Below, piece by piece: positions 2,563 to 30,677 of a stretch of 64,000 bases of DNA. The stretch lies in contig QPGO01000245.1 in assembly GCA_008632985.1 (NCBI GenBank), positions 1 through 64,000 of the forward strand. The letters run 5' to 3'. The DNA comes from Psammoneis japonica. Taxonomy: Eukaryota. Positions within the stretch are counted from its first letter, which is position 1. Each line of letters starts with the position of its first letter. The notes below the pieces were generated by a model. The model was given only the letters and a program-made list of their open reading frames with translations, was not told the origin of the DNA and did no database searches. The position numbers and the translations under genes were made by a program.

Positions 2563-5523
2563 GACAGTTATTTATATTTATTGGGGCTGTTGAATGATAC
2601 ATCGTACGGTATGGTACGTACAGTACAGTACTGTACTGTACTCTATTGCATCTGGCCTGATGGAAGCGATGCTGTAACATCGCTGATTTCCGATGATTTC
2701 ACACCACCACCATGAGCGAATTGCAACACTTTGCGGCTATAATACGATCCGGACTGGAATCTCTCTCTTGTCGAAACCACCTGATACCCTTGCTTTACTA
2801 TCGCCAGGGGATCATCGGAGATGATTATGTCTTGATTTTCTCAGATAGCCTACATCCTTCAAGCGGCTCGTGGAATAAGGAATAAGTTCCGCAGCATGTT
2901 CCATGCTCTTTGTCCAGCCAGCGATACCAGGAACTCGTGCGCTTGATACTGAATATATTGGTTTCGAGTATGCAAGAGCTCCAGAACCACCCGATCACGT
3001 GGAGATCAGCTTCCAGTTGAAAGAACATTCAAGTCTCCAGATCTGGGGATCTTTCTGTATTGTATAGGATTCCACAATCTCCATGGGATTGGCTGCTTGT
3101 GCTGCGGCAGCCCCCGTCACTTACTTTGACGGCGTCTCCCATTACGAGCATGCTGTCAATACAAGCTTTGTGGGTGCTACGGATTCTATTGATGTTGATC
3201 TGATGACAGGGCCTCGTGATTTGACCACGCATATTACCAGTTGCTCAACTTTCTTCGACAAAAAGACACTGAAACCGGAAATATCACGTTTGATGCTGTC
3301 GGACGAACTTCTTTCGAGCTGGAACATGGCTTTACTGCGACGGAATAACCAGCATGCCTCCGCCTCTACCAAAGGTCCAGATGGACTACAACTACCTGAA
3401 CGGAGTACTACGTGGTATTGGCTTTGCCCTTTCGGACACTAAAAATCTTCTACATATTGCATTCGGGGTCTGAACCATCCGCTGCAGAACGGGCAGAGTC
3501 GTCAAAGCCTCAAAGCCCATTTTGTTGCTTTTCATATGCGGCGGTGTACTGTTAAAATGGGGTAAGGTATGTTCTGTTGTGTGCTTAACGGGCATCTGTG
3601 TTTTGTCGCATAAAGTGAAGACACGGCTCATACAATGTTTCCGTTGCGCACTCTTGTTTTTCTCGTTAAGGTCGGCCATTATTCCTTTGAGTTTCAATGT
3701 CAAAATTGAGAGCAAAACGAGCTGGATGTGGTATTGCAGTTCAAAGCACACCTTGGCTGTTGGTTGCTCGCACAAAGATTTCGGATGGAAATCGATTGGG
3801 ACGCTGGAAGCAACGATCGGGTAGGCTGCGGGAGTGATCGTAGCTGGGACACAATAAATAGCGGTGACGACACGGTCGAGAACCATCACCTTGAGAGCAC
3901 CTTTTTTGATCACCATGTCGAGGAAATGAACGAAGAATGCAATACCGAAGGTCACGATGAAACTGAATGTTGCTGTATGTTTTCTAATCTTGGAGGAGAT
4001 GCGACTTTGATTGCACCTCGTCCAGCTTCTGTCTCCGTGGCTCGGAGCATTATTTTTGCTCATCTTGCGAAATACCATACGTTGAGTAGAGATCCTTAAA
4101 AGAGGCAGGAAAGCCGTGGTCTTCTGTTGTGAGCGAGTATGATAGGATGCTAATGGAGTACAGGAACTGAAATCAACTGGTATTCCTATCCACAAACGAC
4201 TTGGTGATTCATTTTTACATTTCCGACTGGAGCAACTTTCAAAGCATTACAACTATGAAGTATTCTGTCTGGTGTCCGGGGTGGAATCAGGTTGACGGGT
4301 TGGAATCAGCAAGTACATGAGAGTAGTTTATTTGTTCCGCGTGTTCCCGTCTTGGCATTACTCGGTGATGTAGGGCTTGTTTTTACCGATTCGCTGCATA
4401 CTTTTTTGCGCGAGCAAACTGATCAGTTTGAAAAGGTATTTTGTCATCAAAAATCAAGATATGTACAATGCCCGAGGCATGAAAATCAAAAAGTGTATCG
4501 GAGCAGCGGGGATGGCTCGTATGCACAGAGCGAGATTTACTAGAGAAGAAGGCGCTAGATATTTGCGGTGTCCGTACATTGGGAACATCGCTATGGTCAG
4601 ATACTGCAGCATATGCCAAAATGTCATGAATGACTGCGGACGACGGTAGAGAGCTTCGAAATTTGTCAGCAAAAAAGAAACGCGTCAATGGCATCGAGAA
4701 TGTCTGCAGTGGTTGCAGGATTAATTGGTCAAGGGATTCCCACCACTGCACTAACACACCACATGCCTGAATTTGAAGGGACTAACCATCCCAGGCATGC
4801 TGGGGATGTGTTGGCCTGTTGCTTTTCGTCCCATTTGACCGAGTTCCTCTCAATCCCCGTCAAATTCTAGAAATGCGGTCACACCCACTTTAATTTTGTC
4901 GGAGACACACGTCTGCTCTCCAACCAGTGGGGTTGTAAAGCCCATGAGAAGCCCAATTATTGCACAGATGGCAAGGTGGTCGGAATCGACCAATTCCCAT
5001 GAGCAGACAGGGAAAGGAGAGAAGGCGCTCAAGCTCCATGTCAGTGTTGTCGGGGAGGAGACGATTTGCATGCTGATGGGATTAGAGGCAAAGTTCAGGC
5101 ACGGTCAACTTAGTGCATCTATTCTGGTTCTAATGGCATGTCAGCTTCTGCATTGTAAATTCTTTCTAGGCAATCGTCAAAAGATGCTCTTGGAAACTGG
5201 GTGCATCGTGTGCCTCACGCAACTTTTCAAACATCGTGCCGCCAACTAACTGCTGCGCGCGGCTCTTGCTCAGCTCATGGCATCGGCACACTCGGCAATT
5301 GACTGGATAAATCCACCGGACAAACAGTGTTGTGATCTCATTAACCGCACTTCATGAGCATCCATGTTTTGTGCCAAAGCCACCACAACATCAGCGCACC
5401 TGTGTCTGTTCCAACATTTCCAAATCCGCTGTGAAATTCTTGTCATTGCCCATGATGGAGGCTCCTGACTCAGTGTGGCAGTCAAGCAACAAGAGAGTTG
5501 TTTGGCGGCTGTGATTCCTTGCA

Positions 5524-6165
5524 CCCAAATGACATTTGATCTTTTGACAGCCAACCACATTTGGTTTGTTGCCTTCCCTGATCTGTTCTGGGGTGCCACC
5601 ATCCTCCTCCTTGATCCATGCCACTTTGGCCATCTCCCTCCTTTTGTCCAAAAGAAGCATCAACAAGGGCTCCCACTTCAGCAGCCAGCAATGTCAGCTC
5701 CAGTCATGGCAGATTGTCCAAATCCACATGAGCAGGTTTGTCAGATCCAAATGACACAGCAAAACTCTCTTTGGTTGAAGCAGGGTTGTCGCGACTTTTG
5801 TGCCAGGGAAGAGTGCAGCTGAGTGACGAGCAATGCACTTTGAAGTTGGCGGCCATGATTTCTTCCACCCAAACAACATTTGATCCTTTAACAGCCAACT
5901 GCATTTAGGCTCTTGTCTTTTCTGATCTGTTCTGGGGTGCCGCCATCCTCCTCCTCATTCCATGCCACTTCAGATGTCTCCCCTCTTTTGTCCAAAAGAA
6001 GTGCCAACAAGGGCTCCCACTTCAGCAGCAATGTCAGCTCCAGTCATGGCAGATTGTCCAAATCCACATGAGCAGGTTTGTCAGATCCAAATGCCAGCAA
6101 AACTTTCTCTGGTCATGGCAGGTTTGTGACTTTTGAGCCAGGGAAGAGCGCAGCTGAGTGAGGAG
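5524..6165. repeat. Local tandem duplication (about 340-bp unit) containing an inverted Copia RT fragment
   Basis: The segments ctgatctgttctggggtgcc and caagggctcccacttcagcag...gtttgtcagatccaaatg each occur twice. The minus strand encodes DGGTPEQIREGNKPNVVGCQKIKCH, similar to 7465-7540. Confidence 0.75.
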
Positions 6166-7199
6166 CACTGCTCTTGTCAAACTGGCAAGGTGCATCATGA
6201 ACAGTCCCAACCCATTTGGGTGCAGTTGGCTGGGGCGCAAGAGCAAAATTTTCATCCAGCTGTCAAAGTGCACAGATTTGTGGGCTGGCAGCAGGTGAGG
6301 TTGACCTGACTTTGGGTCAACCCACACAGTGGAAGCCATTCAGATTGGCACATCTTTCAAAGGTTTGCACTGCTTGGTGCATGACAAAATTGGCAACAGC
6401 ACCACCACAAGCATCAGGGCACAAGCCCAGATTGTTGGCAGGCATGCCATCAGCAGCTTCAGCTGTTGAGATGCAGTGGATGAGTGTTCATTGAGAGCTG
6501 TTTGCATGGACAATCGTGCAGTGCCAGCTGCTGGTTTGGACATCCATGATGTTGTGCCGCTGTGCAGTGGGCAACCCTGGATTGCACTGGCCCGCAGGAG
6601 CAGCTGATCATTGATCATCATGCAGAAAAGCAGCACCTTGCAAGCTTGCTGTTGTCCACACCAGCATCATGCAGGCAAGTTGTGGCCCAGCTGTTCATCA
6701 TGCAATTGGCACATTGTGCATGAAGGGGCAGCTTTGCAGAAGCTGCACAGTGTCAAATGTGGCTGTTGTCACACAGGGGCTCAATCTCCACATGGCCCTG
6801 GACTCATCTGTCACTGCCTGAGTGCTTGAACCCCATTCCTGTGCAGGTTGCAGCAATGTTCTTGCCCCACCCAAGTGCAAAAATGCTTCTCAGTTGGCTG
6901 GCCATGTGCCAGTGCCACAGAAGGTCACTCCCTGTCAGCTCTCTGTGGCTGTTTGTCAAGAGGAGAGCAGAGTGCAAAAAATGCAGCAATGTTGCTCATG
7001 CAGTTGAGAATGCACACAAGCATTTTTCAGAACTTTTGCTGCTCAACAAAGGCAGTGATGTGCCACAACCTTGCACATGTCAGCACAAGATGATGAGAAT
7101 TCCAAGACTCAACCCACTTGGCACAAACAATGCTGCAGAGATGCTGCATTTCATGACCAACTGAAGAGATGTTAAAGCCAGCTGTCAGGCACAATGTCA

Positions 7200-8260
7200 T
7201 GTTCAAAAAATTGTGACTGCAAATGTGGCAGCAAATTGCATGGCTGCACAACAGCTTGGGCACATGGTGCATTTTTGACATTGCTGGGGGATGTCAGCTG
7301 GACAAGACATCCCTGGAAAGGCTGCTGAGTGGCACACCCAGAGCCAACACTGGCAGATGGTGGTCATGGAAAAGCACTCCAGATTGGCAAGGAAGTGGGG
7401 ACAGATTGTTGGTGCAAGACCATCAACAAAGAAGCGTGGAAAGCAGATGAGGTGTGGAATGAAGATGGTCACATCCCAGAACAGATCAGAGGAGGCAAGA
7501 ACCCAGGTGTGTTTGGGTGTCAGGAGATTGGATGCCATTTTGTCTTTGATTTCAAAATGGACTTCACAAGGAAAGCAGGAAAAATTTGTGGCTGGCAAAC
7601 ACACACAGCAGAAGCTCCACTCCAAATTTTGCATGTTCAAGCATTGCGTCAAGAGACAGCACCTGCATTGGCTTGCTTTTGGCAGCTCTGAATGACTTGG
7701 AGCCACATCTTCTGTTGACTTGGAAAACATGTGTTTGAGCACACCATGGGCTGCACAGAGAAAACATGGCTTGAAGGGGGTTCAGAATGTGGCAAAACAA
7801 GAAGGGCACAAAAGGCCAGGTGCCAATTGTTGTTGGGTGAGTGCTGCATGTTTGAAAAGTGTGCTGGATGTTCTTGGTGGATGCAGCATCTCATTGCTTC
7901 TATCATCTGAGACCCAGATTGTTGGTTGACTGTGGCTGATCCTGACATCTGGATTTGTGCTGCAAAACAACCGGATGGTCATGAGCACTTTGAAATGTTG
8001 TTGTCATGTGTTGAAGATGTTGCAATTGCCTCCCATCAAGGCAATGCTGTTGTCAAACAACTCAATGCAGTTGTGAAGGTTAAACCAGGCAGCACCAGAG
8101 AATCAATGTGTTGTCTGGGAGCAGACATTGAGAAACTTCAAACCAAGGGTGAGCATGTTGTTTTGGGCAGCTCGCCAAAAAAATCACATGTTGGGGGTGC
8201 AATGAACACAGCTGAGAAGCTGTCAGAGTCAGAAAAGTTGGCCCCAACCAACGTTTTCAA
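7200..8260 (+). mobile_element. Degenerate Ty1/Copia (CoDi-like) pol fragment (RT)
   Basis: GCQEIGCHFVFDFKMDFTRKA resembles GYQEIKCHxIFDVKMDFTRKARF. DLENMCL resembles DxxNAYL. ADPDIWICAAKQPDGHEHFEMLLSCVED resembles ADPDVWxRxAxKPDGxEYYEMLxxYVDD. Confidence 0.85.
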
Positions 8261-10419
8261 GTGAGTCAAAAATGTCAGCCCCAATGAACTTTTTCTTGTC
8301 AGTCAAAAAGGTCACAACCAACCTTTAAAAGTGAGTCAAGAAGGTTGGTCTCAACCAACCTTTCCAACCAACCTTTTCATTGTCATGTGCTTGCCTGCAT
8401 GCAAAGCAACAGAGGCTGAATGACAAGAAAATGGGAAAAACTTCAAACACACAACAACACAAGATGTTTCATGCTTGAGCATCAGGGTTGTGTTCTTGCA
8501 GAAGTCATCACCAATCTTTTGACAACCAGCACAGTGCTTGAACAGCAACAAACCAGGCCTTGTGAAAGCAGTCATGTGTGAAAAGTCAGGGCTTTGGTTT
8601 TTGCAAGTTGGGCATGCTCCAGCATCAGGATGCAATGCACAAACAACAGACCATTTTTGTCAATTTGCACACAAAGCACATGTTTGTTGTGAGCAATCAT
8701 CTCAAATGTTGGCATTTAAAAAATTTGAGTGCCTTGCACAGACTGTCCAAGACTCATTTTCTCAGTTAACTGCCAGGGATGCAAATGCCCAGCACAACAC
8801 AAACAGAAAGTAGAGTGCAAATGACTGCCCATGACTGCATCAAATTTTGCCCCTTGACATCAAAGTTGGTGCCATCAGATCTGATGCATTTCTTTTCAGT
8901 TTTTGCAGGTGCCCTCTCTCTTTTTGATCAATGCCAATGAGTGACACACTTGTGAAGCAATTTCTTCATGACCTTCTTCAAGTGTTGAGAGTGGTGCTGA
9001 ACTCTGCTCATCTTGGGCTGTTTCTTGCCCCCACTCTTAAACTGTTTAACACAAAAACAACAACACATTCAAAACAGCTGCAATGCACAAATTGGCTCAC
9101 AAGTGCACAGTTGTTTCTGTTTCACACAGATCTGCTTTGACAACCAACTGCATCAAACTTTTTGTGGTGCATCAAGTGCACCTGCAATTTTTTTGCCATC
9201 AATGAGTTTGTTTCAGCAAGCACTGCACTGTGTTTTGCTGCTTCTTTTGTGACACACACTGCATCTGCTTCATGTCATCAATTGGTGCCACCCAAGCAGC
9301 TGGTGCAAAGCTGTTTGAAAGAAGTTGTCAGTGGAAAGGGTCATTCCTGCACAGACAGTGGAGATCACTCTCAGGTCACAAGCCTTGCTTTTACTTGGTG
9401 CAAGGAGGGGCCATGCCACACCGTGAAACAACAAAACAACTTCAGTGGCCATTGTCAAAAACCAGCAGTGAGCATTTGCAATGCACCCACTTTCCTCTGT
9501 TGACACCATTGATGTGCCATTGCCGTTCATCATGTCACTTTTGTCAGTGTCGCCAGACAACATTTAATGTGGCTGTGGCATGGCACACACTCTGCTTGCA
9601 CAGCAAACCTGTGTGAGGTGCACTGTCAAAGATTCAACATCAGCTGCCCTGTGCACAGTTTGATTTCTTTCAGTGCAACAACATCAAGATGGTCCTTGCA
9701 AACAGCACCTGTTTGAAGATGGCGTTGTTCTGGTGAGCAAAATTGTCATTGATGCAAGCCTCTCCATCCTTGGCATCAGGAGCTCAAGATGGCAATTTGC
9801 CAACTTCCACTGCAACCAACACTCTGTGTGGACTCCCAGCTGTCTCTGCTCCACCGGCCAACATTGTTGCTGCACATGATGTGACTCACCCCATTGTTGG
9901 GTTGCATCCCACAGCAACAGCTCCATCCCATGCTGCTGCCAACACAAACCTGGAACCCACCCACATTCCAGCCTCCAATGCCTTCGCTGCTTTCCAGAAG
10001 GCTGCCACCACCTTGCTCAGCCACAGACACATGTGGGCCCAGAATTTCTCATGCCAAGTTAACACCCCTGCCCACACTGCCACTCTGTCAGCAACTGCTT
10101 GGCCAGTTGCTTCTTGTTCTTTTTCAGCAAAAAACAAGACTGACCCATTTGCCACTTTTAAGATTGCTTTGGGCAAGCTTGACAAGCCAATTGAGTGCAA
10201 GGAGGCTGGTGTTTTGCTGTTGACCAAGCAGCCATTGCACGTGTTGTGAACAAGGTGACTGCTGCAACAAAAATGCACTCCCTTGCTTGATGCTCATCAA
10301 CATGTTGCATGTTGTGAGCTTCCATCTGTGCACCACATGCAGAGGATGACTTCTCTGCACACCATGAATGAGGCAAATTGATCCATTGTCTTTTCTAGGA
10401 AGTCAGTCGTCCCAGATTC

Positions 10420-11300
10420 CACTCACCCCAACCCTGCCAATGTCACAAGCCTTCCATTGTCAGGGGTTGTGCTGCTTGGAGTTGTTGTCAGTTGTTGCCT
10501 TGGCTGCTCCCTGGTGACTTGCTGCTGCCACATTGGCGCTGCTCTGGCCACCCACCTGTGATTTCCTCTTGGATTGGGCAAGGTCTGGAAGGCCTCCCGA
10601 CATTGTGCTTTGGCGTCATGCCAGCTGTGACCTCCCAGCTTGCTTTCCCACTCATGCTCAAGCAACCTCTTGGTCTGTCAATTGTTGATTGCCCAACATT
10701 TGGTTGGGACAAATTGCACATTGTTGGGTGCAGAAATGGGCTCATTGCCCTGCCGGCCAATTTTTTTGCCAACAAACGGAGTTTTTTTTTGCTGGTGGCA
10801 AGCCCAATGCATGTGCATGGACACCAACACACATTGTCTTTGGCAATCAACACTTGTGCATTGTGCACTCATCATGTCACAACATGTGAAAAATGTGCAC
10901 ACTCTGCACACAATGACCCACACAATGTGAAGAGTTCATGTGCAATTGTGTGCCTTGAAGCACGAATGTTTGATTTTTCTAATTTTCCATGACCTTTCAA
11001 AACACAACGACAATGGCAACCATGAGTGCAACATGCCCCATCAATGACCAGAAACTCACCATGACACTGACACATGTCAACAGCTCCTGATTGATTTTGC
11101 ATGTCTGTGGCTTCTTGCTGTGCTTTGAAATTGATTGATTGCAGTGAAAACAGCTAAAATGTTCAATTTTTTTGCCCATTGCTTTTCAACTGCATGAGTC
11201 ATCAACAACAAGCCTGTTGCACTCTCATGTGCAAATTCCGCTGTGCACAAGTTCACAAGATGTGACATGCTGTTGATTCTTGTGGCTCTTCAAGGTGACA
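10420..11300 (-). mobile_element. Degenerate Ty1/Copia RT fragment of a second family
   Basis: AKDNVCWCPCTCIGLATSKKKLRLLAKKLA resembles AKDGYVYxEIxKGMYGLPQAGxLANxLL. Flanking fragments resemble the TG..EYRxL / WxxxxxNExGRL and LxWDY..ISMPGYV segments. Heavily decayed. Confidence 0.55.
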
Positions 11301-12583
11301 CCACCATTGAAAAAATGGTGACCACTGAGTTGCCATGGTTGTGATGTGGTTTCCTCAGTTTTTGGCTGCCGCATGCCGTGTGCAGGGCCCCACCCATGGC
11401 AACCAAAAGTGAGCTGTGCTTGTTGAGTTAGCACGGCCACCACTTTGCGCATCATGTGCCCACCACTCTCAGCCGGCGGGGCTGACAGCAAAAAAAATCA
11501 TGATTTGGCAAAAAAAAAGAAACTCCTCAGGCTCATTGCTCCTCTTTTGCCATCTGTCTGTCTGGCAGCCATGACTCTCACCACTTCTTTTTTGCACCGG
11601 AAGATCTTCAACCCTGTTTTTACCAGGCTTTTGACTCTCCTGGTGTGTGTGTGTGTGTGTGNNNNNNNNNNNNNNNNNNGGGGGGGGAGGGGGTGTCAGT
11701 GTGATGGGTCACTCTCAGAAATTGTCAAAAAACAGCCGGGCCCACACTCTGTCATGGCAACTTGTGCAAGAAAACATGTGTCACTTTGCACAGAATTCTG
11801 TGCACATGGCTCAAAGCATGCAGCTGTTTTCACATGTGGTTTGCCAACATGAACAAATTTGTTGCTGGCTCAAAGGCATTCTTTGTGTGTGCAGCAAAAA
11901 TGCAAGCTGCTGCCAGCTTCCAACTTTGTGGCCTGAAGAACAAGAACTCCCAACAAGTCAATTGTTTGCAAAGCTGGGTGTTTTTGTGAACTTGTTTGCT
12001 CATGAAGATGGACAAAAATTTGCTCTCAAGATTGGCAAACCACTGTGTTGCAGTGCTGCTCAAGCAACAACATGAAAACATGTGGGAGGAGCACAGCAGC
12101 TTGTTGCTTTGGCTGTGTGAGGGGCAGGGTTGTCTCTTGTTGACATTGTTTTGGTTCAGCAAGTTTGTCCCTGGCTCAGTGGCCACACAAAGGCTTTGGC
12201 TGTGATTCAAACAAGTGTGCCCCCCATTGAGAGCAACACAACTGACCCTGAACCATCTCTTCCTTGCTTGACAAACAAAATGTTGACAGCTGTGAAACAG
12301 ACAGTTGTTGCCAAACACAACACCCTTGTTTGTCGCTTGTTGCAATGACATGTGAGACCTGCGGTGGGAAGGCAGAGCCAACAACAAGTCCAAAGTCACA
12401 CATTGTTTGCACAAAGGCACAGACAAAGAGCACAAAACAAATGTGTGAATTTTCACCAACAATGCCTCTTGACAATGAAACCAAGCAAAGCTCCAGCCAC
12501 TGCCACTGGTGCAAAGAATGGCTTTCTTGTGTCTTTTCTCCAGCCAGCCTTGCTTTTTCCCTGCTGGCTTGTGGCAGCACAAA

Positions 12584-12742
12584 ACAGAAATTGAATGAGA
12601 TTCAGTGGCAAGACAAACAATGCTTCTCACTGCTGTTTTTCATGATGCATGGAGCTGAGAGCACACACAGCTGTGTGCAACAGCCAAACACACTGCGCGC
12701 AAAAAGTCACAAACAACTAAAATCGTGTTCAAATCCTGTCAC
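12584..12742 (-). repeat. 3' LTR relic of the Copia element
   Basis: The blocks acagaaattgaatgag..gtggcaagacaa..ttctc, tgatgcatg..agagcacacaca and gttcaaatcctgt align with 17574-17795. Confidence 0.75.
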
Positions 12743-15700
12743 TCAATGTTTTGAGCCACAGGAAGAACATTGTCAAAATTGGATGAACAAAGCACTTTGG
12801 GATCAAAGTTTTGGAAAACATGAGAGAATGAAGCAAATTTCAAATTTGGGAGCAACCCCAATGCTTGCTTGGAGTGTCAGCTGGGTTGCAAAAAGCCTCA
12901 ATGAAAGAATGAAAATTGAGAAAACCAGAAGCAATCACTTCGTGCACTCAGTGAAATGACATGGTGTGGTGCTTTGCTTGTGCAACTTGAAGTGTGGGAT
13001 CACAGCACTGTTCACAACAAGAACTGACTTCTTGTCATCACCAAACATGCAACCAGCATCATTGATCAGGACACCTGGGTGATGCAGAATGATGGTGTGC
13101 AGGTTGACAACCTGCTCTCCAAACAAGTCCTTGCAGCAACAAATTCTAACCCACATGTGGCAGCATTGATGGTGCTGTTTTGTTTCTTGGAGAGAACCAA
13201 CAGACCAGGAATTTGTCAAGGAAGCAGAGGATGCCTGCAACTGATCATGCAGTGAGAGAGATTTGGTGCATCAATGCAGCAGGTCACAGTGGTGCATTTG
13301 CCAAGGGTCTCAGGGGCATCCATCAGAAGCATCTCTTCCACATTGCCACACACGGTGGTGTGTGCCCAATCATGCACAGGTTTAGGAAGGTTGAAGCAGT
13401 TGGTTCCTTGGTGTGCACACACACACACACAAGGCTCCATGTTGCATCTTGGCATGGTCCAGATGGCAGCCTGGTGTGGTGCCACACAGAAGCTGGAGAG
13501 AGACATGACAGCCACAGTCACACAAATGCAACCAAGTGACACAGCCCATTGGAGGGACCCACCAAGAAGGGGCTGGAGCTGTTGAATGCCACCTGGTTCC
13601 AAAATTTGAAGATGTTGAGCTCAGGGTGATCTCTCTTGTCCAAAAAGGAAAACATGATGTTGTTGTGGCCTGGGTTTTCTTGCCAAAGAAATGTGTGCAG
13701 GTGTTGGCCATGTGCTCAATGTGCTTGCAGGGTGTGAGGCACAAAATGTGCCATTGGGGTCATGGGAAAAGTTGTGCCAAGGTGGAGCTCAATCAGCCCA
13801 GCACCTTTTAGCTTGAACTTGTGCTTTTCTTAAGGGCATCTGCAAAAGCCTGGGAATCCCTCATGGTTGTGGCCAAGTTGTCAACATGCACTGCACTGCA
13901 GCATGTTTGCAGTGGTCGCTGTCCCTGCACATCCAGATGCTGGGCTCAGCAAAGCATGGGAAGAATCCTCCAGAGCAAAGACAATCTGCAAACAAGCATC
14001 ATTTGTGCCTGCTTTGGCTGGAGATGTGGAGCCTGCACAGCACCTTGTGACTGACAAGAATGTGGCCTTCAAGGTTTCCAAACTTGGGTCTGGCAATGAT
14101 GCACAACCTCTCCTTGATGGTGGCTTTGAGGTGTGCATTGCCAATCATGTCCTCTGTGGCCCAAGTTTCTGGTTTGTTGAGCTTGGCCAGGAAGACCATC
14201 GGAGGGACACCATGGAGAGACACCACCCCAGAATGAATGCTGTTGACTGGGACATCAATCAAGTGCCCATGTGCTGCAAGACATGCCTTGTGGCATCCAC
14301 CACATTTGATGTCATGAGCAAAGTGCACATGGATCTTCTTGTGCCCCACAGGAGCTTGGAAGTTCTTGCATTGGTGGCCACAATCATGGAACATGGAGTG
14401 CTCATTGAGTTGGTTCATCTCAAGATCCATTGCATCTTCCCATTTGTGGTTCCCATTGCATTCATCAAGGGTCACGGCATGTTGATGGTCACCAGCAGGG
14501 ACTTTGCATCTGCACTTGCAGCAAGGTGCAGTGTGGAAGGACCTCTGCTCAGCTCAGTTGGCCATGTGGAACAGTTTCTTGTGATGTCTTGCAATGCCAC
14601 AGAAATGCTTCTGTGTCCAGGAGGCTGCTCTCACATGTGCAGATTGCTCACAGGTGACAGAGTCATCCTTGGCAATGATGGTCAGGAGTTCAGCTGTGAT
14701 CTCCCCAATCTCCCACTTGAGTGAGCCACTGCAGCTTGAGCCTTTCCACATGTGAGGCTGTGAGATCTCAGTGCGGAGGACCCTCATGCAAAAGGGTGTG
14801 TCAGAAAAATGTTGTCATTGCAAGCAAGAGTCACTTCATGTTCTTCATTGTTGATGGCGCAAATGAATTTGGCAAGTTCCAGGTCATTGATTGCTTTGCT
14901 GTTGTGGTCTTTGACTGCCTTGACCATGTGGGCTTGATGCCATTGTCTGTCCTCTTGTGGTTTTGCAAGGAAGGTGCATCCAACAATGTCCAATGGGTCA
15001 AAAGCTGGCATCTTGGGCGTCCTGATCTCCCCATCTAAAGGACCATCAGAGCTGGCATTGGGGCAGTCATGATGGGATGTGACAACAATGGGTGAAACAG
15101 TCTCCCCATCAAGAGGATTAAGACGCAAGTTGTGAGCCAGTGGATCATGGGTGACAGGGTGCATGTTGGACCTGAACATCAACACCTTCCAAACGTCATC
15201 AGAGAGAGAATCTTGAAAGTCATCTGGTGGCCCAAGTGTGTTTTGCTGTGCCAACAAAGTGGCCACACAGTGCCCAGGATTCAGGTGGCCAGCTGGATTC
15301 GTCAAGGTGGCAGCAGATGGGTTCCCACTGGTGAAAGTGAAGAGCGGGGCTCATGTGTGTTGGGTGGAGCCACTTGGCACCTTGGTGGGTGTGCACCAGC
15401 AGCACAGTTTGGTGGTTGGCAGATGCAGTGTGGTTTAAAAGAAAACACATGCACATGAGAGCAAGCAGCCACATTGATCCATGATGGTGTTGGCCATGTT
15501 CTTCTCTGTCTGGTGGCATCACTTGGCAAAGATCTGATGCTGCTGGTGAGGTTCACTTTGCCAGCTGGAGACAGAGCATGGAGAATCCCAACAACCTTGT
15601 TGCTGATCTCAACCTGAGTTTGATTGCTGATGAGCTTGGAGGGAGCACCACATTCATGGATGTCATCCTCAAGGGTGTCAACAAATTCTTTCTTGGTCTC

Positions 15701-17573
15701 AGTGCCACATGTGTCAATGACAAGCAATTCCACGCCAGCAAAGAGTTGAACACTGGCACAACCCAAGTGGATCACCGGGGTGTCTGAGCAAACCCTGCAA
15801 GTTGCAATGGGGGGTTGTTGCAGCAATTGAATGTTGAGTGCTGGGTTGGGAGACTTGCAGGCCTTTTTCAAGTGTGTGCTGGCATGCATGCAGGTGTGTT
15901 GCATCATGCAATCAAAGGTGGTGCAGCATGCAGTCTTCCCATCAGAACAAAGCCAAAGTGTGGTTGCAGGGAGATGCAGTCAGGGTCCTTGGGTTTGACC
16001 TCATGCTCATGGCACTTGCAAAAGAAATCAGATGTTGGCAGCCCATGATGCTCAATTAGATTCCCAGAGCATTGCATTGCATCACAACATGCTGATGACA
16101 GCAATTGCCACACTGGTCAAATGGGTTGGTGGTTGGGCAGTTCTGCAGTTCAGAGATGGCATCACACCACTCATCATTGGTGGTCAACACATGAGCAAGC
16201 ACCAATGGAGACATGGAGCAAATCACATTGTGGGTGTTGACATGACAACAAGTGCAGCCATTGAGCTCAATGTTGTTGGGTGCAGATGTCAAGGTGGCAG
16301 TGGGCTGGGACTTGTCAGGAGAGCAAGCCACCTCAGAGGACTTGTTGTCAGGCAACAAGAACTGTTGGAGCCCAGTGGCAGAGGTTTGTGCTGTGCATGG
16401 TGTGCTGGAATGGGGCTGTCATCTAGGACATCCACAGTGCTGTCAGATGTGCAGGGGGGGCTGGAGGCAGGGTGACATCATGAGACATGGCAAACAACTT
16501 GACATTTCCATCACTCCCCAGGTGAAGGTCATGGAGATTGACCATTGCTGAGTTGTGGCAGTTGGCAGCACAGGGCACATGGGACTCAAAGATGATCACC
16601 TTGGTGGATGGAGGCAATGTGCCCACCAGATGCACTGATTTCCCAGAGGGATGCAGTGCCATTGGTTGCTGGTGAGACTGGCCCTTTGTTGATGGGGTGC
16701 ACTTGCACTGTGGGAGGCACAGGCTTGAACAACATCAACATCACTGTCCTTGTCATTCTGCAGGAGGGATCCACTCAAAAACAGCAAACATGTGCTTCCC
16801 CTCATTGAAAAATTCCTGAGCTGTGGCAGTGGTGGGCCGGCAGCTTGGATCAAGAATGTGTGCTCATCATCCTGCACTTGGGCTTGAACAATGACAGAGT
16901 GCAATGTGTGCCACTGCTTGTCATAAAAACATCAGGGTCATGCTTGATGCCACACTTGAAATCATGGAGGGGATCATGGTGGCAAAGAGCTGGGTGCAGG
17001 AGCAGAGGAGGGAGCTGCACCTGCTGTGATGACAGAGATGCCACACACTTGGGGCTGAGACAACACCCACAAAACTCTTTAGCAGGTGCAAACAAGTGGG
17101 GGTCATTGCTGACATCAGTGCCTCCACACCCTTCTTCAGTGTAAAAGCCAATCAAAGCCAATGGCAGACTTTGGCAGCCACATGGCAGAGCGACACAATT
17201 GGTGCCATCATCACAGATGGAGAGCAGCCTGGCACAAATGTGTGAACACATCCTTGCATGAGTCTGACCCATCAACAGGCAAGGCAGAGTGGAGAGGGCT
17301 GTCTGCAACTTGACTCAACACTGCTGTGTTGAGGATGTGCTCAAGGCCCTGAGTTTGTTGTTGCCTGGTGAGAACCATGTTGATGGCAAGAAGCACAGAA
17401 GGCACAGAAATGGCTGGTGGAGAAAACAAAAACTGAGCTTCTTGGTTTTTAAATCCAAGCCGCAGAAGGTGAGTTAACATGTTTCCGCCAATGCAGCAAG
17501 CAGCATGTCGAAAAACAATGATGACATGCTGGGTGCTCAGTGTGGTGTCAACAGTGCCAAAGCTGTTGATCTG

Positions 17574-17795
17574 ACAGAAATTGAATGAAAACTGGTGGCA
17601 AGACAAGCAACACTTCTCCCTGCTGTCCAAATGGCACATGGGTCACCATGCAGAGACCATTGCAGGAGCCAAAAAAGACATGCATCATGTTGTTGGCATG
17701 CATGCACTGATGCATGAAGACAAGAGCACACACAACTGCATGAGACAAATCTCGCACAACTCACATCCTGTTCAAATCATTCAAATCCTGTGACA
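17574..17795 (-). repeat. 5' LTR relic of the Copia element
   Basis: Same three blocks as 12584-12742, lying upstream of gag. The minus strand begins TGTCACAGG. Confidence 0.75.
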
Positions 17796-18471
17796 GTGAG
17801 TCATGCAGAGAGTGCCCCTCAAGCAGCTGTTCACCCTGCCAACTGGGGAGCTCAAGCTCCCAACCCTCAACTCCAAAGACAAAAGCTCTGCCATTGAGCC
17901 ACAGCAGCTGTGCTCACCTGTGTGCAATTTTTTTGTGGGTGTTCAAATCCCGCTGGTTGATGGCTGGCAGAGGGGCACAGAGCTTGCTTGGCTGGACCGC
18001 TGCTGTGTGGTGTGTGTGATGTGGCCCCAAAGCAAAAGTTGTGTGTTGGCATGGCACAGCACAAATTTGTTTGAGGCTTTGTCAATCACCAGCCTCGTGC
18101 AGGAAAGAGGAGAACCTCCCTCTGCTGTGCACCAACACACAGCCCCCTCTCTTGTTCCAAGTGCACTCTGCATTGCTTGCCATTGCACCAAATTCTGGGT
18201 GAGAGGTTGGCCAGCATGGGGTCAAAGCAAGAGGAGATCATCTGATGAGTGGACACTGTGCTTGAGATGGCAAAAACACCTCAGCAACCTCAAAGACAGA
18301 GCTGAGCTTTGTCATTCATTGTGCTTCAAATGTGGCAAAACCTTTTGTGTGCATGATGTGTGACAGTGAGAGTGCAGCAGCTGCAGCTCAATGGCAGAAC
18401 TTGTGTCTTTGGGGAATGAAAGGACAGGGGCTCAAGCCCCCCCAGCCAGCCAGAGTGGCTTCTGCTTGAGG

Positions 18472-18474
<3 letters not shown>

Positions 18475-18510
<36 letters not shown>

Positions 18511-18534
18511 GTCTCTCCCTCCCTCTCTCTCTCT
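18475..18534. repeat. (CT)n/(GA)n microsatellite
   Basis: Directly visible, imperfect at its 3' end. Confidence 0.95.
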
Positions 18535-18874
18535 GGTGAAACAAGTTGATTGGCACAGACAATCATCCATCAAATCATGTGACTGACAACTGGAGCAGCT
18601 GGAGTCAACAGCTGCAATTTGGGTGCTCATTTCAGCCACACAACAACAGCAAGGCACAGGATTGTTGGCCAAAGTCAGGAGCAAGTTTTCTGCAGTGGCT
18701 TCATCAACAGCCAGCTGTGCTGTTGCCAGCACAAGATGGAGGCTGTTGCATGAAAAGATCCAAGGGGCAGGCAGACAGTGAGCAGTTGTCAAGTGGGCAC
18801 ATTGCTCTCCCTGTCTGTTGCTCCATCTCTCTCTTCCTCTGTGCGTGTCTCTGTCTCTCCGGCTCTCAGCTGCC

Positions 18875-19090
18875 GCCCCCTGTTTGCAGCCCTGTGGGAC
18901 AAAACTTTGGGGCCATGTTTGGGTGCAAAAGGAGGTTGCCAAGGTTCTAGGATCCTCAGCTGCAACAGACAATCATGCGGTCAAGCCCAGCAGCACATTG
19001 TGGGGCATGGCTGCACCGCAGGTTTGAGAGCGGCTGAGAGTGGCGAGAGCTGGGTGGGCCAAAGGAGCAGCGCCAAAGCTTGATCTCACA
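18875..19090 (-). mobile_element. Degenerate 3'-end fragment of a Penelope-like RT, related to the element at 26010-26220
   Basis: Shares ctgtttgca..ggacaaaact..gggccat, caacagacaatcatgcggtcaag and ggtttgagag with the element at 26 kb. Translates GLDRMIVCCS. A CT-rich tract is adjacent. Confidence 0.75.
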
Positions 19091-19436
19091 AAAGCAGCAT
19101 TTGAGAGTGGTTGAGAGTGATGAGCTGGGTGGGCTAAAGTGCCAAAGCTTGATCTCACAAAAGCAACCATGGCTCAAAGGCAAAGCTGTTGTTGCTGGCC
19201 CGCTCTTGATTTGGGCACAGCGGGAGAGACAGCCGCTGGAGGAGCATGCCCCACCTGCCCTCTTCCTTTTTGCCAACAAGCTGCCAGTGGCAGCAGGGGG
19301 GGAGTGGCTGGTCAGCTGGACGAAAGAGGACAAAGCAGGTTTTTGCAGTGATGCTGGCTGGTGGCAGCAGCCACAGCTTCATTTGGACAACACAGCATCA
19401 CGCTTTATGTAGCGTAAAAATTATTTTCGAGGTAGC

Positions 19437-19508
19437 GCAGCCGTGGCTCAATGGTAGAGCTTTCGTCTTCGGAACGAAAGGTTGGGGGTTCGAGTCCCCT
19501 CGGTTGTA
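19437..19508 (+). tRNA. tRNA-Arg (anticodon UCG)
   Basis: Cloverleaf with acceptor GCAGCCG/CGGTTGT, D arm GCTC-AATGGTA-GAGC, anticodon arm TTCGT-CT TCG GA-ACGAA and T arm GGGGG-TTCGAGT-CCCCT. A T-run follows downstream. Confidence 0.9.
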
Positions 19509-21499: not shown

Positions 21500-22899
21500 T
21501 CTTCTGCATGATTCGTTCTTGAATAACGGAGCAACATTTATTTTGTGAGCGAAGTAATTAGCACAACGCACAACACACACACACTCTGGCGAGTCAGTCA
21601 TTCGAGTTTCCATTTTGATGACCTCAAAATGACTTCGTCTGTGCGCCCGTTCCGGTTGGTCTCACTGGTTGTTCAGACCAAGAATCAATCGCCTCACCGC
21701 AAAGTGAAAAACAGGCAGTGGACAAAAAGCCAAGCATGAACCTATGACACTGTGCTGTTGAGCCGGCAAGTCACTGTCACCAAAAGGGAATCCTGCCAGG
21801 CTTCCTGTGCCACTCATTCTTGCACTTGCCCTGTTGCTGTGTCGGCTGTGGCTCGCCTCAACATCGAATGTCAAACGTGTGCCAACAGATTGTTGGGTGG
21901 CAACAGATGGCACTTGTTGTTCTCAATCAACCAGATGATTCACTCCAAAGAGTGAGCAGAAAAAAGTCAGTGAGATCATGACAGATGATGGAGAGAAGAT
22001 CCTCCAAAGAAAACAGCAGTCAGCATCCTCAACTCGCCACGTCAGCGCTCAAAAGATGCAGCTGCATTTCCAGGTCACAGGTGGAACCCCTTGAGCCAAA
22101 GGCTTCAACATGTGCCAACCATGGTTGCTGCCAAAACCATCAACACAAATTCACTCACATTTCTGCTCTCAGAGGGGGTGACTCTCAACAAGCTTGAAAA
22201 TTGATGGCACACATTCTGGCACACACAAGGTCAAGCAAAGTTCTTCAAAAGCCATTGCTCGGTTGACACATCATTGGCATTTAAAAAGTCCTTGTCATCC
22301 ATCTGAGGGACAATGTGTTTTCTTCCCTTTGTGGATGCTGCAGCTTGACAGATCTTTTGCTTTTTTCTGTGACCTTGTTTGCCTTGTTCTTCTTGTCCTT
22401 GGTGCGTTCATCATTGCACATGCACACGCAGCCAGACAACCCAAGTGGAGGCCTTTTGGGCAGCAGCAATGTTGAGGTAGCTTTGGAAATGTGGTCATAA
22501 AGAATGACATGCAAAAACAATGTGGATCCCATGAAGGGGTGCTGGAAACACATTTTTCACAAGACAAAACATCATGTTCATGTTCTCTGAATTTTGTGTG
22601 TCAACATTCCCTGCCCTGAACAATGCTTGCATGCCACCCCAACAGCAGCCATGGTGCATTTGGTGCCAATGTGACATGCTTGACAGGCAATTCACAAATG
22701 TGTCAACAGGCTTTTTCAATCACTTCTTGAGTGTGTGTCCACCACAGCTGTCGCCCGTGCACAAAAAGAACATCAGCTCAGAGAAAAACAGCTGAAAGAA
22801 GAAAGCTCTCACACCACTCTCATTCCTCCACACCTTTCACAGCTCCATCAAAAGTCAGAGGTGAACAGAGCACTGGCATTTGTCAATGTTTCACCGTGT

Positions 22900-24210: not shown

Positions 24211-24599
24211 TGGTTCAAAGGTTTTTGATTGATGAATGGCAGTGGGTGAGAATGCAAGAAACATGAAGTTGTTTGCAATGGCAAAATGGCATGAGGAAAA
24301 TGGAGAACTTTGCATTGGCATTTTTGAAGCAAGTTTCACTTTGCTGGAAGCAATGAAAAACTGCAATGATCAGACAAGCCATCTTTCACCCTGATCTAAA
24401 GCTCAAGTGAGAATGGATCTTGTTGGAAGATTGGTTGAGATGCAAGTCAGAAATGTCAAACTGAGCTTTGTTGGTGGCACACAACACAACTTTTGGAAGC
24501 TTGCAGCCTCTTCAAGCTTTCCTTCCATGAGTTGTCAAATGAGTTTGCATGGCTGGTGTTGTTGACAACACAGCAGTTGCAATGTGGCACCAATCATCC

Positions 24600-25700: not shown

Positions 25701-25829
25701 CTTGTTGGGCATGAGAAAACATGCTGCAGATGACAGCTGTGACAAACAAAGAATGCAAGCAGCTGAGGTAGAGCCACTTAATCGGACATTTATCCAACTG
25801 TTTCGGCAAATGGCAGGCACAACAACGTT

Positions 25830-25877
25830 GGCCGAAGTCAGGAGAATGAGACTTTCGCGGTGGCTTCATCAGCGGCC
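25830..25877 (-). ncRNA. Type I hammerhead ribozyme (copy 1)
   Basis: Minus strand reads GGCCG-CUGAUGA-A-GC(CACC)GC-GAAA-GUC(UCAUUCUCCU)GAC-UU-CGGCC. The core is intact, with a 5-bp stem I, a short stem II and stem III. Confidence 0.8.
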
Positions 25878-25966
25878 GGCTGTTGTTGTTGACGTGGTTG
25901 AGGTTGTTGCGTTAAAAAATCCGAGTGGTGGAGGACAGGCGAGTTGACTCGATTGATTAATTCAAA

Positions 25967-25971
25967 TCACC

Positions 25972-26010
<39 letters not shown>

Positions 26011-29306: not shown

Positions 29307-29460
29307 TGTTGTCGTTTCACTCTCTCTCGAATGAACGAACGAATCGGCACAGCCGATTCTCCGTCAAATGTGACAAACAAAGAATGCAAGCAGCTGAGGT
29401 AGAGCCACTTAATCGGACATTTATCCAACTGTTTCGGCAAATGGCAGGCACAACAACGTT

Positions 29461-30326: not shown

Positions 30327-30328
<2 letters not shown>

Positions 30329-30367
<39 letters not shown>

Positions 30368-30674: not shown

Positions 30675-30677
<3 letters not shown>

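What the first reader, a model, noticed from the sequence alone, without database searches (positions are those of the whole stretch)
5300..19400. Surviving TpA is almost only YTAR, defining the target motif as 5'-TAY-3'
Seen: the TA dinucleotides left in domain A are mostly TTAA, TTAG, CTAA or CTAG (e.g. about 5341, 5888, 5905, 7172, 8080, 8716, 10058, 10394, 12717, 13146, 15035, 16056, 16422, 17474, 18947). There are only a few exceptions (CTAT about 7900, GTAG about 8810, TTAC about 9392 and 11620, ATAA about 16924, GTAA about 17141). Inference: YTAR is the only NTAN class with no TAY on either strand, so the mutator most simply reads TAY (equivalent to RTA>RCA on the other strand). Established: TadA acts on U-A-C in tRNA, and TadA-derived DNA editors prefer a 5' T. 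The resemblance is suggestive only.
Basis: partly seen in the sequence, partly recalled or inferred. Interest (0 to 1): 0.85.

Follow-up and report, generated by a model that had tools for sequence, protein, structure and literature searches.

The report
TpA-erasing mutator in diatom repeats
In this diatom chromosome piece, repeat-filled stretches have had nearly every TA step rewritten to TG or CA by a mutation process that prefers TA followed by T or C, a rare kind of genome defence so far reported only once, in an unrelated alga.

Summary
Window 5300-19400 holds 39 TpA against about 548 expected, and 32 of the 39 are YTAR. In the unaffected parts of the window 186 of 1152 are YTAR (Fisher p=1.6e-18).

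The window is nuclear DNA of a pennate diatom. Ordinary genes alternate with repeat islands in which TpA (rho 0.04) and CpG (rho 0.10) are nearly gone and TpG/CpA nearly doubled. The summed rho of the four pyrimidine-purine steps is unchanged (3.92 vs 3.89), so both were lost by transitions.

A per-strand model fits the 16 NTAN counts (residual deviance 6.9 on 12 df). Survival by the base 3' of the A is A 0.85, G 0.35, C 0.04, T 0.03. TAY is therefore the preferred target, TAG is hit less, and TAA hardly at all.

Independent tests agree:
- Four other domains show the same bias.
- A retroelement's conserved Tyr codons became His only after a purine (7 of 11 vs 0 of 15).
- A comparison of terminal-repeat copies follows the rule.

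TpA loss and CpG loss are separable. The closest precedent is a 2026 preprint on Bigelowiella natans. The enzyme is unknown, and A>G at TAY cannot be told from T>C at RTA.

The parts
5300..19400 (.). Type-A domain A1 (the finding). A 14.1-kb repeat island with TpA rho 0.04, CpG rho 0.10 and TpG/CpA rho 1.9.
   Evidence: No 150-bp stretch inside it reaches the normal TA+CG density (domain mean 1.0, normal mean 14 and minimum 8). It is built of dispersed repeats: 704 contigs of run X1 are 80% or more alike, while its own copy sits at single-copy depth of about 60-77. No Pfam family among 54 ORFs, apart from a sub-threshold DUF7495 match at the border.
5502..6175 (+). Tandem duplication inside A1 (5502-5840 and 5846-6175, 84% identical).
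   Evidence: One search finds 8 CA/TG double swaps in 339 columns, which is independent resolution of ancestral TA or CG in each copy, plus 2 TA/TG differences.
19437..19508 (+). tRNA-Arg(TCG) gene about 30 bases beyond the sharp right border of A1.
   Evidence: ARAGORN and Rfam RF00005 at 67.3 bits. TA and CG return to normal density from 19401/19406.
21650..25737 (.). Type-A domain A2 (TpA rho 0.03, CpG rho 0.11), with roughly 190-bp tandem repeats at 22891-24214.
25738..29587 (-). Type-B domain B1, a retroelement whose sense strand is the minus strand. Direct terminal repeats 25738-25956 and 29369-29587 are identical at 219 of 219. TpA rho is 0.14 and CpG is kept (0.87).
   Evidence: The 444-aa ORF has 1138 relatives at E<=1e-3, and one relative has a weak RVT_1 match. 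Tyr is 0.7% against 4.3% in relatives. About 80% of the TA loss is A>G on the antisense (plus) strand.
29700..32400 (.). Type-A domain A3 (TpA rho 0.05, CpG rho 0.08), holding a degenerate copy (30352-30688) of the B1 terminal repeat.
   Evidence: The copy is 80-82% identical to the B1 repeat. Where the B1 repeat has CG this copy has TG or CA, and the TA sites follow the TAY rule.
50200..56200 (.). Type-B domain B2 (TpA rho 0.09, CpG rho 0.82), rich in tandem repeats. Nothing recognisable is encoded.
   Evidence: Of 30 surviving TA, 22 have a 3' purine.
56200..57000 (.). Type-A domain A4 (TpA rho 0.06, CpG rho 0.23).
58900..60450 (.). Type-A domain A5 (TpA rho 0.04, CpG rho 0.20).

Best explanation
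SHOWN. Window 5300-19400 is a repeat island in a pennate diatom's nuclear genome that has undergone near-saturating transition mutation at the two self-complementary pyrimidine-purine steps. TpA became TpG or CpA, and CpG became TpG or CpA. The TpA arm acts on each strand separately and depends on the base 3' of the adenine (T about equal to C, then G, then A far behind). TA sites with a purine 3' on both strands, above all TTAA, are therefore what is left. The two arms are separable, because two other domains have lost TpA but kept CpG. The process stops within a few bases at the island's edge and spares the neighbouring genes.

INFERRED. The TpA arm is most likely enzymatic deamination of adenine to hypoxanthine in DNA (read as G) by a nucleic-acid deaminase that recognises T-A-Y. 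It would be aimed at repeats or silenced chromatin as a genome defence, as proposed for Bigelowiella natans. It kills elements by missense changes (Tyr to Cys or His, Ile to Met, Val or Thr, Thr to Ala) and cannot create a stop codon. The CpG arm is most likely ordinary decay of methylated CpG in silenced repeats, faster with A/T flanks. It is slower than the TpA arm, so young elements show only TpA loss. In the one element whose history can be read (B1), most editing hit the antisense strand and happened before or during integration.
For: Direction and mass balance
- The summed rho of TA+CG+TG+CA is 3.92 in normal parts and 3.89 in type-A domains.
- In B1, 109 TA are missing against a baseline of 50 related elements, and about 106 TG are gained over the two strands.
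- The four most conserved Tyr columns of B1's first ORF now read Cys 3 and His 1, while Pro is kept at 18 of 21, Leu at 15 of 17 and Trp at 3 of 3.
- CA/TG double swaps occur between diverged repeat copies (8 in 339 columns, 10 in 271 columns, and others).

Context

Separability
- Type-B domains have TA rho 0.09-0.14 with CG rho 0.82-0.87.
- TTAA retention is the same with CpG loss (0.62) and without it (0.61).

Targeting
- The domains are multi-copy in the genome.
- The normal parts hold ordinary genes: VWA8-type ATPase, Mo-co oxidoreductase, eIF3 subunit, CRAL-TRIO, GT47.
- The border is sharp at 19400.

Real sequence
- Contigs built from run X1 reproduce A1 with 0-2 differences per contig, at the depth of the flanks. 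X1 may be the assembly's own source, so this is not independent support.

Still active
- Of the 6 single-copy differences between window and run that were shown, 5 are transitions at these steps: 9047 TA/CA, and 5828, 16940, 17479 and 19169 CG/CA.

Precedent
- In B. natans mutation-accumulation lines, 230 of 231 new mutations in integrated viral DNA were A>G or T>C, all at TpA, and the authors propose a DNA adenine deaminase.

CpG arm
- Diatoms methylate CpG in transposable elements through DNMT5a (passages of PMC9998398).
Against: - No enzyme is identified. No whole genome is held for this window, so no deaminase candidate could be sought.
- A>G at TAY and T>C at RTA are the same change in duplex DNA, so the modified base is not known.
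- The expected counts for A1 come from genic DNA of the same window, not from unmutated ancestors. What the A1 repeats once were is unknown.
- The in-situ reading is strained by B1. Its two terminal repeats are identical and still hold a TAT and a GTA although the interior is nearly cleared. This points to editing before or at integration, or to an assembly effect beside the N gap.
- In B1 the sense-strand loss shows little context dependence (loads A 0.70, C 0.81, G 0.15, T 0.93).
- None of 80 related elements from metagenomes is TpA-poor (minimum rho 0.43). None of 87 relatives with 5 or more Tyr columns shows the Tyr loss. Both searches favour intact copies.
- The flank 4500-5300 is also multi-copy (up to 12 contigs) yet is not mutated, so repetition alone does not trigger the process.
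Confidence: 0.6

Rival explanations
1. The modified base is thymine, not adenine. An enzyme of the TET/JBP dioxygenase kind would oxidise T in R-T-A (to 5-hydroxymethyl- or 5-formyluracil, or a base-J-like product) in silenced repeats. The product mispairs with G and gives T>C. The same enzyme acting on 5-methylcytosine at CpG could drive the CpG arm, which would explain why both losses end in TG/CA.
For: Sequence cannot separate it from the adenine reading, because RTA>RCA equals TAY>TGY. In B1 the net change is T>C on the sense, non-template strand: T is 17.8% against 22.2% in the family, C is 33.9% against 29.7%, and A and G are unchanged. That is the strand exposed during transcription. 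Both arms hit a pyrimidine followed by a purine, and both accept a 5' A. That 5-hydroxymethyluracil and base J favour TpA steps in dinoflagellates and kinetoplastids is recalled, not from any call.
Against: The 5' preferences differ between the arms: R (A or G) before T, but T and A before C. Type-B domains lose TpA without CpG loss, which needs unmethylated CpG there. No call shows such a modification or enzyme in diatoms. The only paper on the phenomenon proposes adenine deamination.
Confidence: 0.2
2. The editing is not done on resident chromosomal DNA. It would act on the single-stranded minus-strand cDNA of retroelements during reverse transcription, with the timing of APOBEC3G but on adenine, or be inherited from an edited master copy. 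Islands such as A1 would then be piles of copies that arrived already edited.
For: B1's terminal repeats are identical at 219 of 219 yet TA-poor, with 3 of the 5 TA in the roughly 320-bp 5' copy being TTAA. About 80% of B1's TA loss is A>G on the antisense strand. Antisense TAY is at 2 against about 56 expected. B1 is a reverse-transcriptase element.
Against: A1 is cleared symmetrically on both strands and without any unmutated gap of 150 bp over 14 kb. Tandem repeats and unclassifiable repeats are equally affected. B1's sense strand is edited too, with 13 of 26 Tyr now Cys. One TA/CA difference between window and run suggests change in place. In B. natans the targets were integrated DNA viruses mutating in place. 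The repeat identity may be an assembly effect, since the 3' copy abuts the N gap at 29588-29670.
Confidence: 0.25
3. ADAR-like editing of double-stranded repeat RNA, fixed in the genome by reverse transcription.
For: The changes are A>G and T>C with a strict 5' T, and ADARs favour a 5' U (as stated in the B. natans preprint's discussion).
Against: The 3' preference here is T about equal to C, then G, then A. The 3' G preference of ADARs is recalled, not from a call. Loss is near-total (96% of TA), far beyond known hyperediting. ADARs being confined to animals is also recalled. The islands include tandem and unclassified repeats with no sign of retrotransposition.
Confidence: 0.04
4. Artefact: systematic miscalls at modified bases, or an assembly or polishing error, not real sequence.
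For: The domains are probably heavily modified chromatin. The only run that holds the stretch may be the assembly's own source. Two N gaps lie in the window.
Against: Contigs rebuilt independently from the run's reads agree to within 0-2 letters per 0.7-3.9 kb, at flank depth. The changes obey codon-level logic against 30 or more relatives from other sources. Diverged repeat copies show alternative TG/CA outcomes, which miscalling of one motif would not give.
Confidence: 0.03
5. Selection or avoidance: the islands are kept free of TA and CG because something reads those steps (a nuclease, restriction, or an RNA sensor).
For: Both depleted steps are self-complementary, as in word avoidance.
Against: The islands encode nothing recognisable. 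B1's invariant Tyr residues are destroyed, so function is lost, not kept. The summed rho of the pyrimidine-purine steps is unchanged and the changes are transitions only, which is the mark of mutation pressure.
Confidence: 0.02

Closest known systems
TpA hypermutation of integrated viral DNA in Bigelowiella natans (Mettrop et al., bioRxiv 10.64898/2026.01.13.699255). I read the abstract, passages and the Discussion.
   Same: TpA to TpG/CpA transitions only. The process is local to foreign or repeated DNA (reverse transcriptase and DDE domains are enriched among TpA-poor genes). TpA depletion comes with CpA+TpG gain in clustered 1-kb windows. The neighbouring genome is unaffected.
   Different: The host is from another supergroup branch (a chlorarachniophyte, Rhizaria, versus a diatom, Stramenopila). 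Depletion there is mild (viral region rho 0.45), while here it is near-total (rho 0.03-0.14). The preprint's main text holds none of the words flanking, context, trinucleotide or CpG, so no 3' base preference, strand bias or coupled CpG loss is reported. Its figures and supplements could not be seen and may hold a motif.
Repeat-induced point mutation (RIP) of ascomycete fungi, and the TCG-directed variant in basidiomycetes (PMC3318451, seen only as a search listing with the start of the abstract).
   Same: A repeat-directed, dinucleotide-specific transition mutator that ruins transposable elements and leaves sharply bounded, compositionally odd islands. The CpG arm here (TCG most affected) resembles the basidiomycete pattern.
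   Different: RIP changes C to T, mostly at CpA, and so enriches TpA and lowers GC (recalled). Here TpA is erased and CpA/TpG enriched, which is the opposite sign. GC stays at about 49%, against about 47-48% in the normal parts.
APOBEC3G editing of retroviral minus-strand cDNA (recalled).
   Same: A strand-biased, context-specific deamination signature on a reverse-transcribing element. In B1 about 80% of the changes map to the antisense strand.
   Different: The base is adenine (or thymine), not cytosine. The outcome is T>C on the sense strand, not G>A. The large islands are symmetric.
TadA/ADAT tRNA adenosine deaminases and TadA-derived DNA base editors.
   Same: A deaminated A preceded by U/T, and TadA's natural site U-A-C-G (recalled) matches T-A-Y. 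Passages of the B. natans preprint cite an amphioxus ADAT2 reported to edit DNA, and an EcTadA residue said to be pivotal for DNA editing.
   Different: No such protein was examined here. Eukaryotic ADAT2/3 also edits U-A-G and U-A-A anticodons (recalled), which does not match the weak TAA and TAG loads.
Decay of methylated CpG in silenced repeats.
   Same: CpG to TpG/CpA in transposable-element islands only. Diatom elements are CpG-methylated through DNMT5a (PMC9998398 passages). Differences between window and run at CG/CA sites suggest it is continuing.
   Different: Nothing unusual beyond the flank order T > A > C about equal to G. Methylation itself was not measured.

Membership tests
TpA-directed hypermutation of foreign/repeat DNA (B. 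natans type) | Changes are A>G / T>C transitions at TpA, giving TpG or CpA. | tested here: met
   Conserved Tyr (TAY) became Cys (TGY) at 13 and His (CAY) at 7 of 26 sites. TA lost 109 against TG gained about 106 in B1. The summed rho of the pyrimidine-purine steps is unchanged.
TpA-directed hypermutation of foreign/repeat DNA (B. natans type) | Confined to repeated or foreign sequence, with neighbouring genes spared. | tested here: met
   The domains are multi-copy or a retroelement. Genes beside them have TA rho 0.57. The border is sharp at 19400.
TpA-directed hypermutation of foreign/repeat DNA (B. natans type) | Mutation observed arising in place in real time (mutation-accumulation lines). 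| not testable with these tools
   The only hint is one TA/CA difference between the window and run X1 at 9047.
Fungal RIP | C>T at CpA (or TCG) in duplicated DNA, with TpA enriched and CpA/TpG depleted. | tested here: not met
   TpA rho is 0.04 and CpA/TpG rho is 1.9, the opposite sign. Only the CpG arm resembles the TCG variant.
ADAR-type hyperediting | 5' U/A and 3' G neighbour preference on double-stranded RNA (preference recalled). | tested here: not met
   The 5' T is met. The 3' order is T 3.4, C 3.1, G 1.05, A 0.17, so G is not preferred. An RNA stage was not tested.
APOBEC3-type cDNA editing | Cytosine deamination on minus-strand cDNA, giving G>A on the sense strand. | tested here: not met
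   The sense strand of B1 shows T>C, with A and G unchanged. Only the strand bias is alike.
TadA/ADAT-like adenine deaminase as the agent | A deaminase-fold protein with HxE and PCxxC motifs that acts on A in a T-A-C/T context in DNA. | not testable with these tools
   No genome is held and no candidate gene lies in the window. Only the site preference matches.
Methylated-CpG decay | CpG>TpG/CpA restricted to methylated repeats. | tested here: inconclusive
   CpG rho is 0.08-0.23 in type-A domains and 0.82-1.0 elsewhere. The B1 repeat has CG where the old copy has TG or CA. Methylation was not measured.

The most novel reading that the evidence does not exclude
Diatoms carry a dedicated, sequence-specific A:T-to-G:C mutator, a T-A-Y-reading DNA or cDNA adenine deaminase. 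It would inactivate retroelements and other repeats by erasing TpA. It can act on the minus-strand cDNA before integration, as an adenine counterpart of APOBEC3, as well as on silenced chromosomal repeats. Together with the chlorarachniophyte case, this would make TpA editing an old genome-defence system of the SAR supergroup and a natural source of context-specific DNA adenine deaminases.
Probability: 0.35. Interest if true: 0.92.

Novelty: new variant of a known kind. Interest (0 to 1): 0.8.

Why it matters
Repeat-directed point mutation is well characterised only in fungi, where C changes to T. A mutator that erases TpA by A:T>G:C changes has a single, very recent report, in a chlorarachniophyte.

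Finding it near saturation in a diatom extends it to a second major lineage of ecologically dominant algae. It also supplies what the first report's main text lacks:
- a flanking-base rule (T-A-Y far above T-A-G, and T-A-A hardly at all);
- per-strand action;
- strand bias in a retroelement;
- separation from CpG decay.

The rule is a concrete biochemical fingerprint with which to look for the enzyme. No natural enzyme that deaminates adenine in DNA is well established (my recollection, not from a call; base editors use evolved TadA). The rule also gives a simple genome-scan statistic: TpA depletion with YTAR survivors.

There is a practical consequence for annotation. Because TA>TG/CA never creates stop codons, dead elements keep long open frames and can be mis-annotated as genes.

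Tried and rejected
- Whole-genome access: none is held, so no genome-wide scan, no family consensuses and no search for deaminase or dioxygenase genes.
- Pfam on 54 ORFs of A1 and 54 ORFs of the other domains found nothing meaningful. There were sub-threshold chance-level rows only (DUF7495, HCMVantigenic_N, Prd1-P2).
- Homologue search with A1 ORF 15305-15979 found none. The protein atlas on ORF 13834-14721 gave no hit of 0.9 or more. The original nature of the A1 repeats stays unknown.
- Self-comparison of the window found no terminal repeats inside A1.
- Sequencing runs: one holder only, probably the source. No RNA holder is listed, so nothing can be said on expression.
- Laid contigs give only summary counts of paralogue differences (A>G 93, T>C 129, C>T 97, G>A 96, transversions 15-30 each). 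Only 40 of 601 places are shown, so the context of paralogue differences could not be tallied.
- Related elements from metagenomes (80 kept of 356 confirmed): none is TpA-poor. The search patterns contain Tyr and favour intact copies, so this says little about other diatoms.
- Earlier findings of this scan: nothing on this genome or on look-alike stretches. A word search gave only unrelated phage cases.
- TTAA as a product of double hits on TCGA was rejected. TTAA retention is the same where CpG is kept (0.61 vs 0.62). TTAb proportions also differ from TCAb proportions (chi2 32.7, p=4e-7).
- RTAY palindrome recognition was rejected. Half-sites (RTAR, YTAY) are depleted to 2-5%.
- A gradient of editing along B1 was looked for by eye in per-kb counts. 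No clear trend was seen.
- Literature: no paper holds TpA, TpG, CpA and diatom together. Searches found only the B. natans preprint for TpA hypermutation.

Full report
WHAT THE WINDOW IS

The window is nuclear DNA of a pennate diatom. The 827-aa AAA_5 ORF at 38022-40505 belongs to a VWA8-type gene. Its best named relatives are Seminavis robusta (67%) and Amphora coffeaeformis (62%), and its best unnamed relative is 72% identical. Other unaffected parts encode a galactosyltransferase, a GT47 exostosin domain, DUF6824, a Mo-co oxidoreductase, an eIF3 subunit and a CRAL-TRIO protein. No whole genome is held.

THE DOMAINS

Per-kb counts and finer profiles show two kinds of abnormal stretch.

| Type | Stretches | TpA rho | CpG rho | TpG/CpA rho |
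|---|---|---|---|---|
| A | 5300-19400, 21650-25737, 29700-32400, 56200-57000, 58900-60450 | 0.03-0.06 | 0.08-0.23 | 1.65-1.97 |
| B | 25738-29587, about 50200-56200 | 0.09-0.14 | 0.82-0.87 | |
| Normal | 33000-48000 | 0.57 | 1.0 | 1.17-1.18 |

The summed rho of the four pyrimidine-purine steps is 3.92 in normal DNA and 3.89 in type A. What TA and CG lost, TG and CA gained, which is the mark of transitions.

THE OBSERVATION

All 39 TA of 5300-19400 were listed.
- YTAR accounts for 32: TTAA 17, TTAG 6, CTAA 6, CTAG 3.
- RTAR is 4, YTAY is 3 and RTAY is 0.

Outside the domains YTAR is 186 of 1152 (Fisher p=1.6e-18). A null of TA regenerated from the domain's own TG/CA gives 0.23 (p=8e-15). The other type-A domains repeat the bias with 16 of 27 (p=7e-7).

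Retention by tetramer falls from TTAA 0.62, through CTAA/TTAG 0.27 and CTAG 0.14, to 0.02-0.05 for sites with one TAY half-site and 0 for RTAY.

A model in which each strand is hit independently, according to the base 3' of its A, fits the 16 counts.

| Model result | Value |
|---|---|
| Residual deviance | 6.9 on 12 df |
| Improvement over uniform loss | chi2 101.5, 3 df |
| Survival in A1 by 3' base | A 0.85, G 0.35, C 0.043, T 0.032 |
| Survival in the other type-A domains by 3' base | A 0.58, G 0.46, C 0.12, T 0.036 |

TAY is therefore the preferred target, TAG a weaker one, and TAA nearly refractory. Recognition of an RTAY palindrome is excluded, because half-sites are almost as depleted.

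DIRECTION AND RULE, TESTED ON KNOWN ANCESTORS

Domain B1 is a retroelement whose sense strand is the minus strand.
- Its 444-aa ORF has 1138 relatives at E<=1e-3 among 1.84 billion representatives. One of eight relatives scanned has a weak RVT_1 match.
- Direct terminal repeats are identical at 219 of 219.
- Tyr makes up 0.7% of the ORF against 4.3% in 30 relatives. All four columns with 97-100% Tyr now read Cys (3) or His (1), while other conserved residues are mostly kept.

Over both ORFs I examined 26 columns that have 30% or more Tyr in relatives, or a Tyr kept in the window.

| Outcome | Sites | Base before the codon |
|---|---|---|
| His (CAY) | 7 | purine in all 7 |
| Cys (TGY) | 13 | A in 4, pyrimidine in 9 |
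| Tyr kept | 6 | pyrimidine in all 6 |

His against a 5' purine is 7 of 11 versus 0 of 15 (p=5e-4). T>C thus occurs only in R-T-A, which is T-A-Y on the other strand.

Of the 24 TA surviving inside B1, 22 have a 3' purine on the plus (antisense) strand, while the 5' base is unbiased. Binomial p=3e-4 against the family baseline.

Eighty related elements fetched from metagenomes have TpA rho of 0.69 +/- 0.14, with a minimum of 0.43. Using the 50 of similar GC content as a baseline:
- B1 should hold 133 TA and holds 24.
- Antisense loads are T 2.8, C 2.4, G 0.66, A 0.38.
- Sense loads are below 1 and almost context-free.

Mass balance gives 109 TA lost, 86 TG gained on the antisense strand and about 20 on the sense strand.

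A third test compares the B1 terminal repeat with an older, CpG-depleted copy at 30352-30688 (80-82% identical).
- Both TTAA are kept.
- GTAG became GCAG and TTAT became TTGT.
- CG in B1 corresponds to TG or CA in the old copy.

Diverged tandem copies inside type-A domains show frequent CA/TG double swaps, for example 8 in 339 columns and 10 in 271. This is expected if an ancestral TA or CG was resolved separately in each copy.

NATURE OF A1

- None of its 54 ORFs of 100 aa or more has a Pfam family above threshold.
- One ORF searched against 5.8 billion proteins found nothing, and an atlas look-up gave nothing of 0.9 or more.
- Laying the contigs of the one run that holds the stretch shows A1 reproduced with 0-2 differences per contig at depth 59-77, the same as the flank. 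The run may be the assembly's source, so this only rules out an assembler or polishing artefact.
- 704 contigs are 80% or more alike, and some bins sum to depths of about 1000-4200. A1 is therefore made of dispersed repeats.
- No 150-bp stretch inside it has a normal TA+CG density.
- The right border is sharp. The last TA-free base is near 19405, and a tRNA-Arg(TCG) gene lies at 19437-19508.
- Of the six single-copy differences between window and run that were shown, five are transitions at these steps: one TA/CA at a TTAA, and four CG/CA. This suggests both processes are still running. Only 40 of 601 differing places were shown.

THE CpG ARM

Per-strand survival by the 5' base is T 0.16-0.18, A 0.21-0.35, and C and G about 0.5. 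TCGA is retained at 0.02 and CCGG at 0.32. Diatoms methylate CpG in transposable elements through DNMT5a, and many have RID-related DNMT4 of unknown function (passages of PMC9998398). I read this arm as ordinary decay of methylated CpG. It is slower than the TpA arm, which explains type-B domains. Methylation was not measured.

MECHANISM

Shown: a per-strand, context-dependent TA>TG/CA transition process that is confined to repeats and separable from CpG loss.

Inferred: enzymatic adenine deamination in DNA. This is the proposal made for the only precedent. In mutation-accumulation lines of Bigelowiella natans, 230 of 231 new mutations in two integrated viral regions were A>G or T>C, all at TpA, at about 6e-7 per site per generation.

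The rival is that T in R-T-A is modified and mispairs. It cannot be excluded from sequence, and it fits the net sense-strand T>C of B1.

When the editing happens is open. A1's symmetric, gap-free clearing and the B. natans experiment favour action on resident DNA. B1's identical terminal repeats, which still hold a TAT and a GTA, together with its antisense bias, favour editing before or at integration. An assembly effect beside the N gap is the other possibility.

A useful corollary is that TA>TG/CA cannot create a stop codon. Dead elements therefore keep long ORFs (444 and 307 aa in B1, and many of 100-296 aa in A1).

COMPARISON AND NOVELTY

- It works like the B. natans system and meets its sequence criteria. 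Its sign is opposite to fungal RIP.
- It shares only strand bias with APOBEC3 editing.
- Its 3' preference does not fit ADARs (preference recalled). It matches TadA's U-A-C site only by analogy.
- The preprint's main text has none of the words flanking, context, trinucleotide or CpG. Its figures and supplements could not be seen.
- No paper in the library joins TpA, TpG, CpA and diatom. Five further searches found only that preprint.

I rate this a new variant of a just-described kind: a new lineage, near-saturation, a flanking rule, strand asymmetry and a coupled but separable CpG decay.

VERDICT

The enzyme and the timing are unresolved.

Noticed in passing
window 19437-19508: A tRNA-Arg(TCG) gene sits about 30 bases beyond the razor-sharp right border of the mutated island. 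It could be a chromatin barrier, or the landmark of a tRNA-targeting element's insertion.
   Followed up: partly
window 25738-29587: A retroelement of an abundant reverse-transcriptase family that Pfam does not recognise: 1138 relatives, and no family for 7 of 8 relatives scanned. Its terminal repeats end in (TC)n, and the 3' copy is cut by the N gap at 29588-29670.
   Followed up: partly
window 49000-50200: A stretch with 45% A and 9% T, made of ACA/GCA-rich tandem repeats (RCA 119 against TGY 18 per kb). TA is only mildly reduced, and it leads into the TA-poor, CG-normal domain 50200-56200. Nothing recognisable is encoded.
   Followed up: partly
window 5300-19400 and other type-A domains: CpG loss depends on the 5' base of the C (T > A > C about equal to G). 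TCGA is retained at 0.02 and CCGG at 0.32.
   Followed up: yes
window 4500-5300: The left flank is also multi-copy in run X1 (up to 12 contigs and many variant letters) but has normal TA and CG. Repetition alone does not trigger the process.
   Followed up: no
window 25738-26060 versus 30352-30688: Between the young terminal repeat and its degenerate copy, A>G is 12 against T>C 1. Many of these are at non-TpA sites such as TGA versus TGG, a strand-biased extra A/G difference that the TpA rule does not explain.
   Followed up: partly
window 5828, 9047, 16940, 17479, 19169: The window and the run's single-copy contigs differ at TA/CA or CG/CA steps. These are either alleles of a diploid or recent mutations of the same two kinds.
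   Followed up: partly
window 38022-41888: The VWA8-type gene reads as two ORFs (38022-40505 and 40569-41888), while relatives are single proteins of about 1300 aa. This is probably a short intron or a frame change between them.
   Followed up: no
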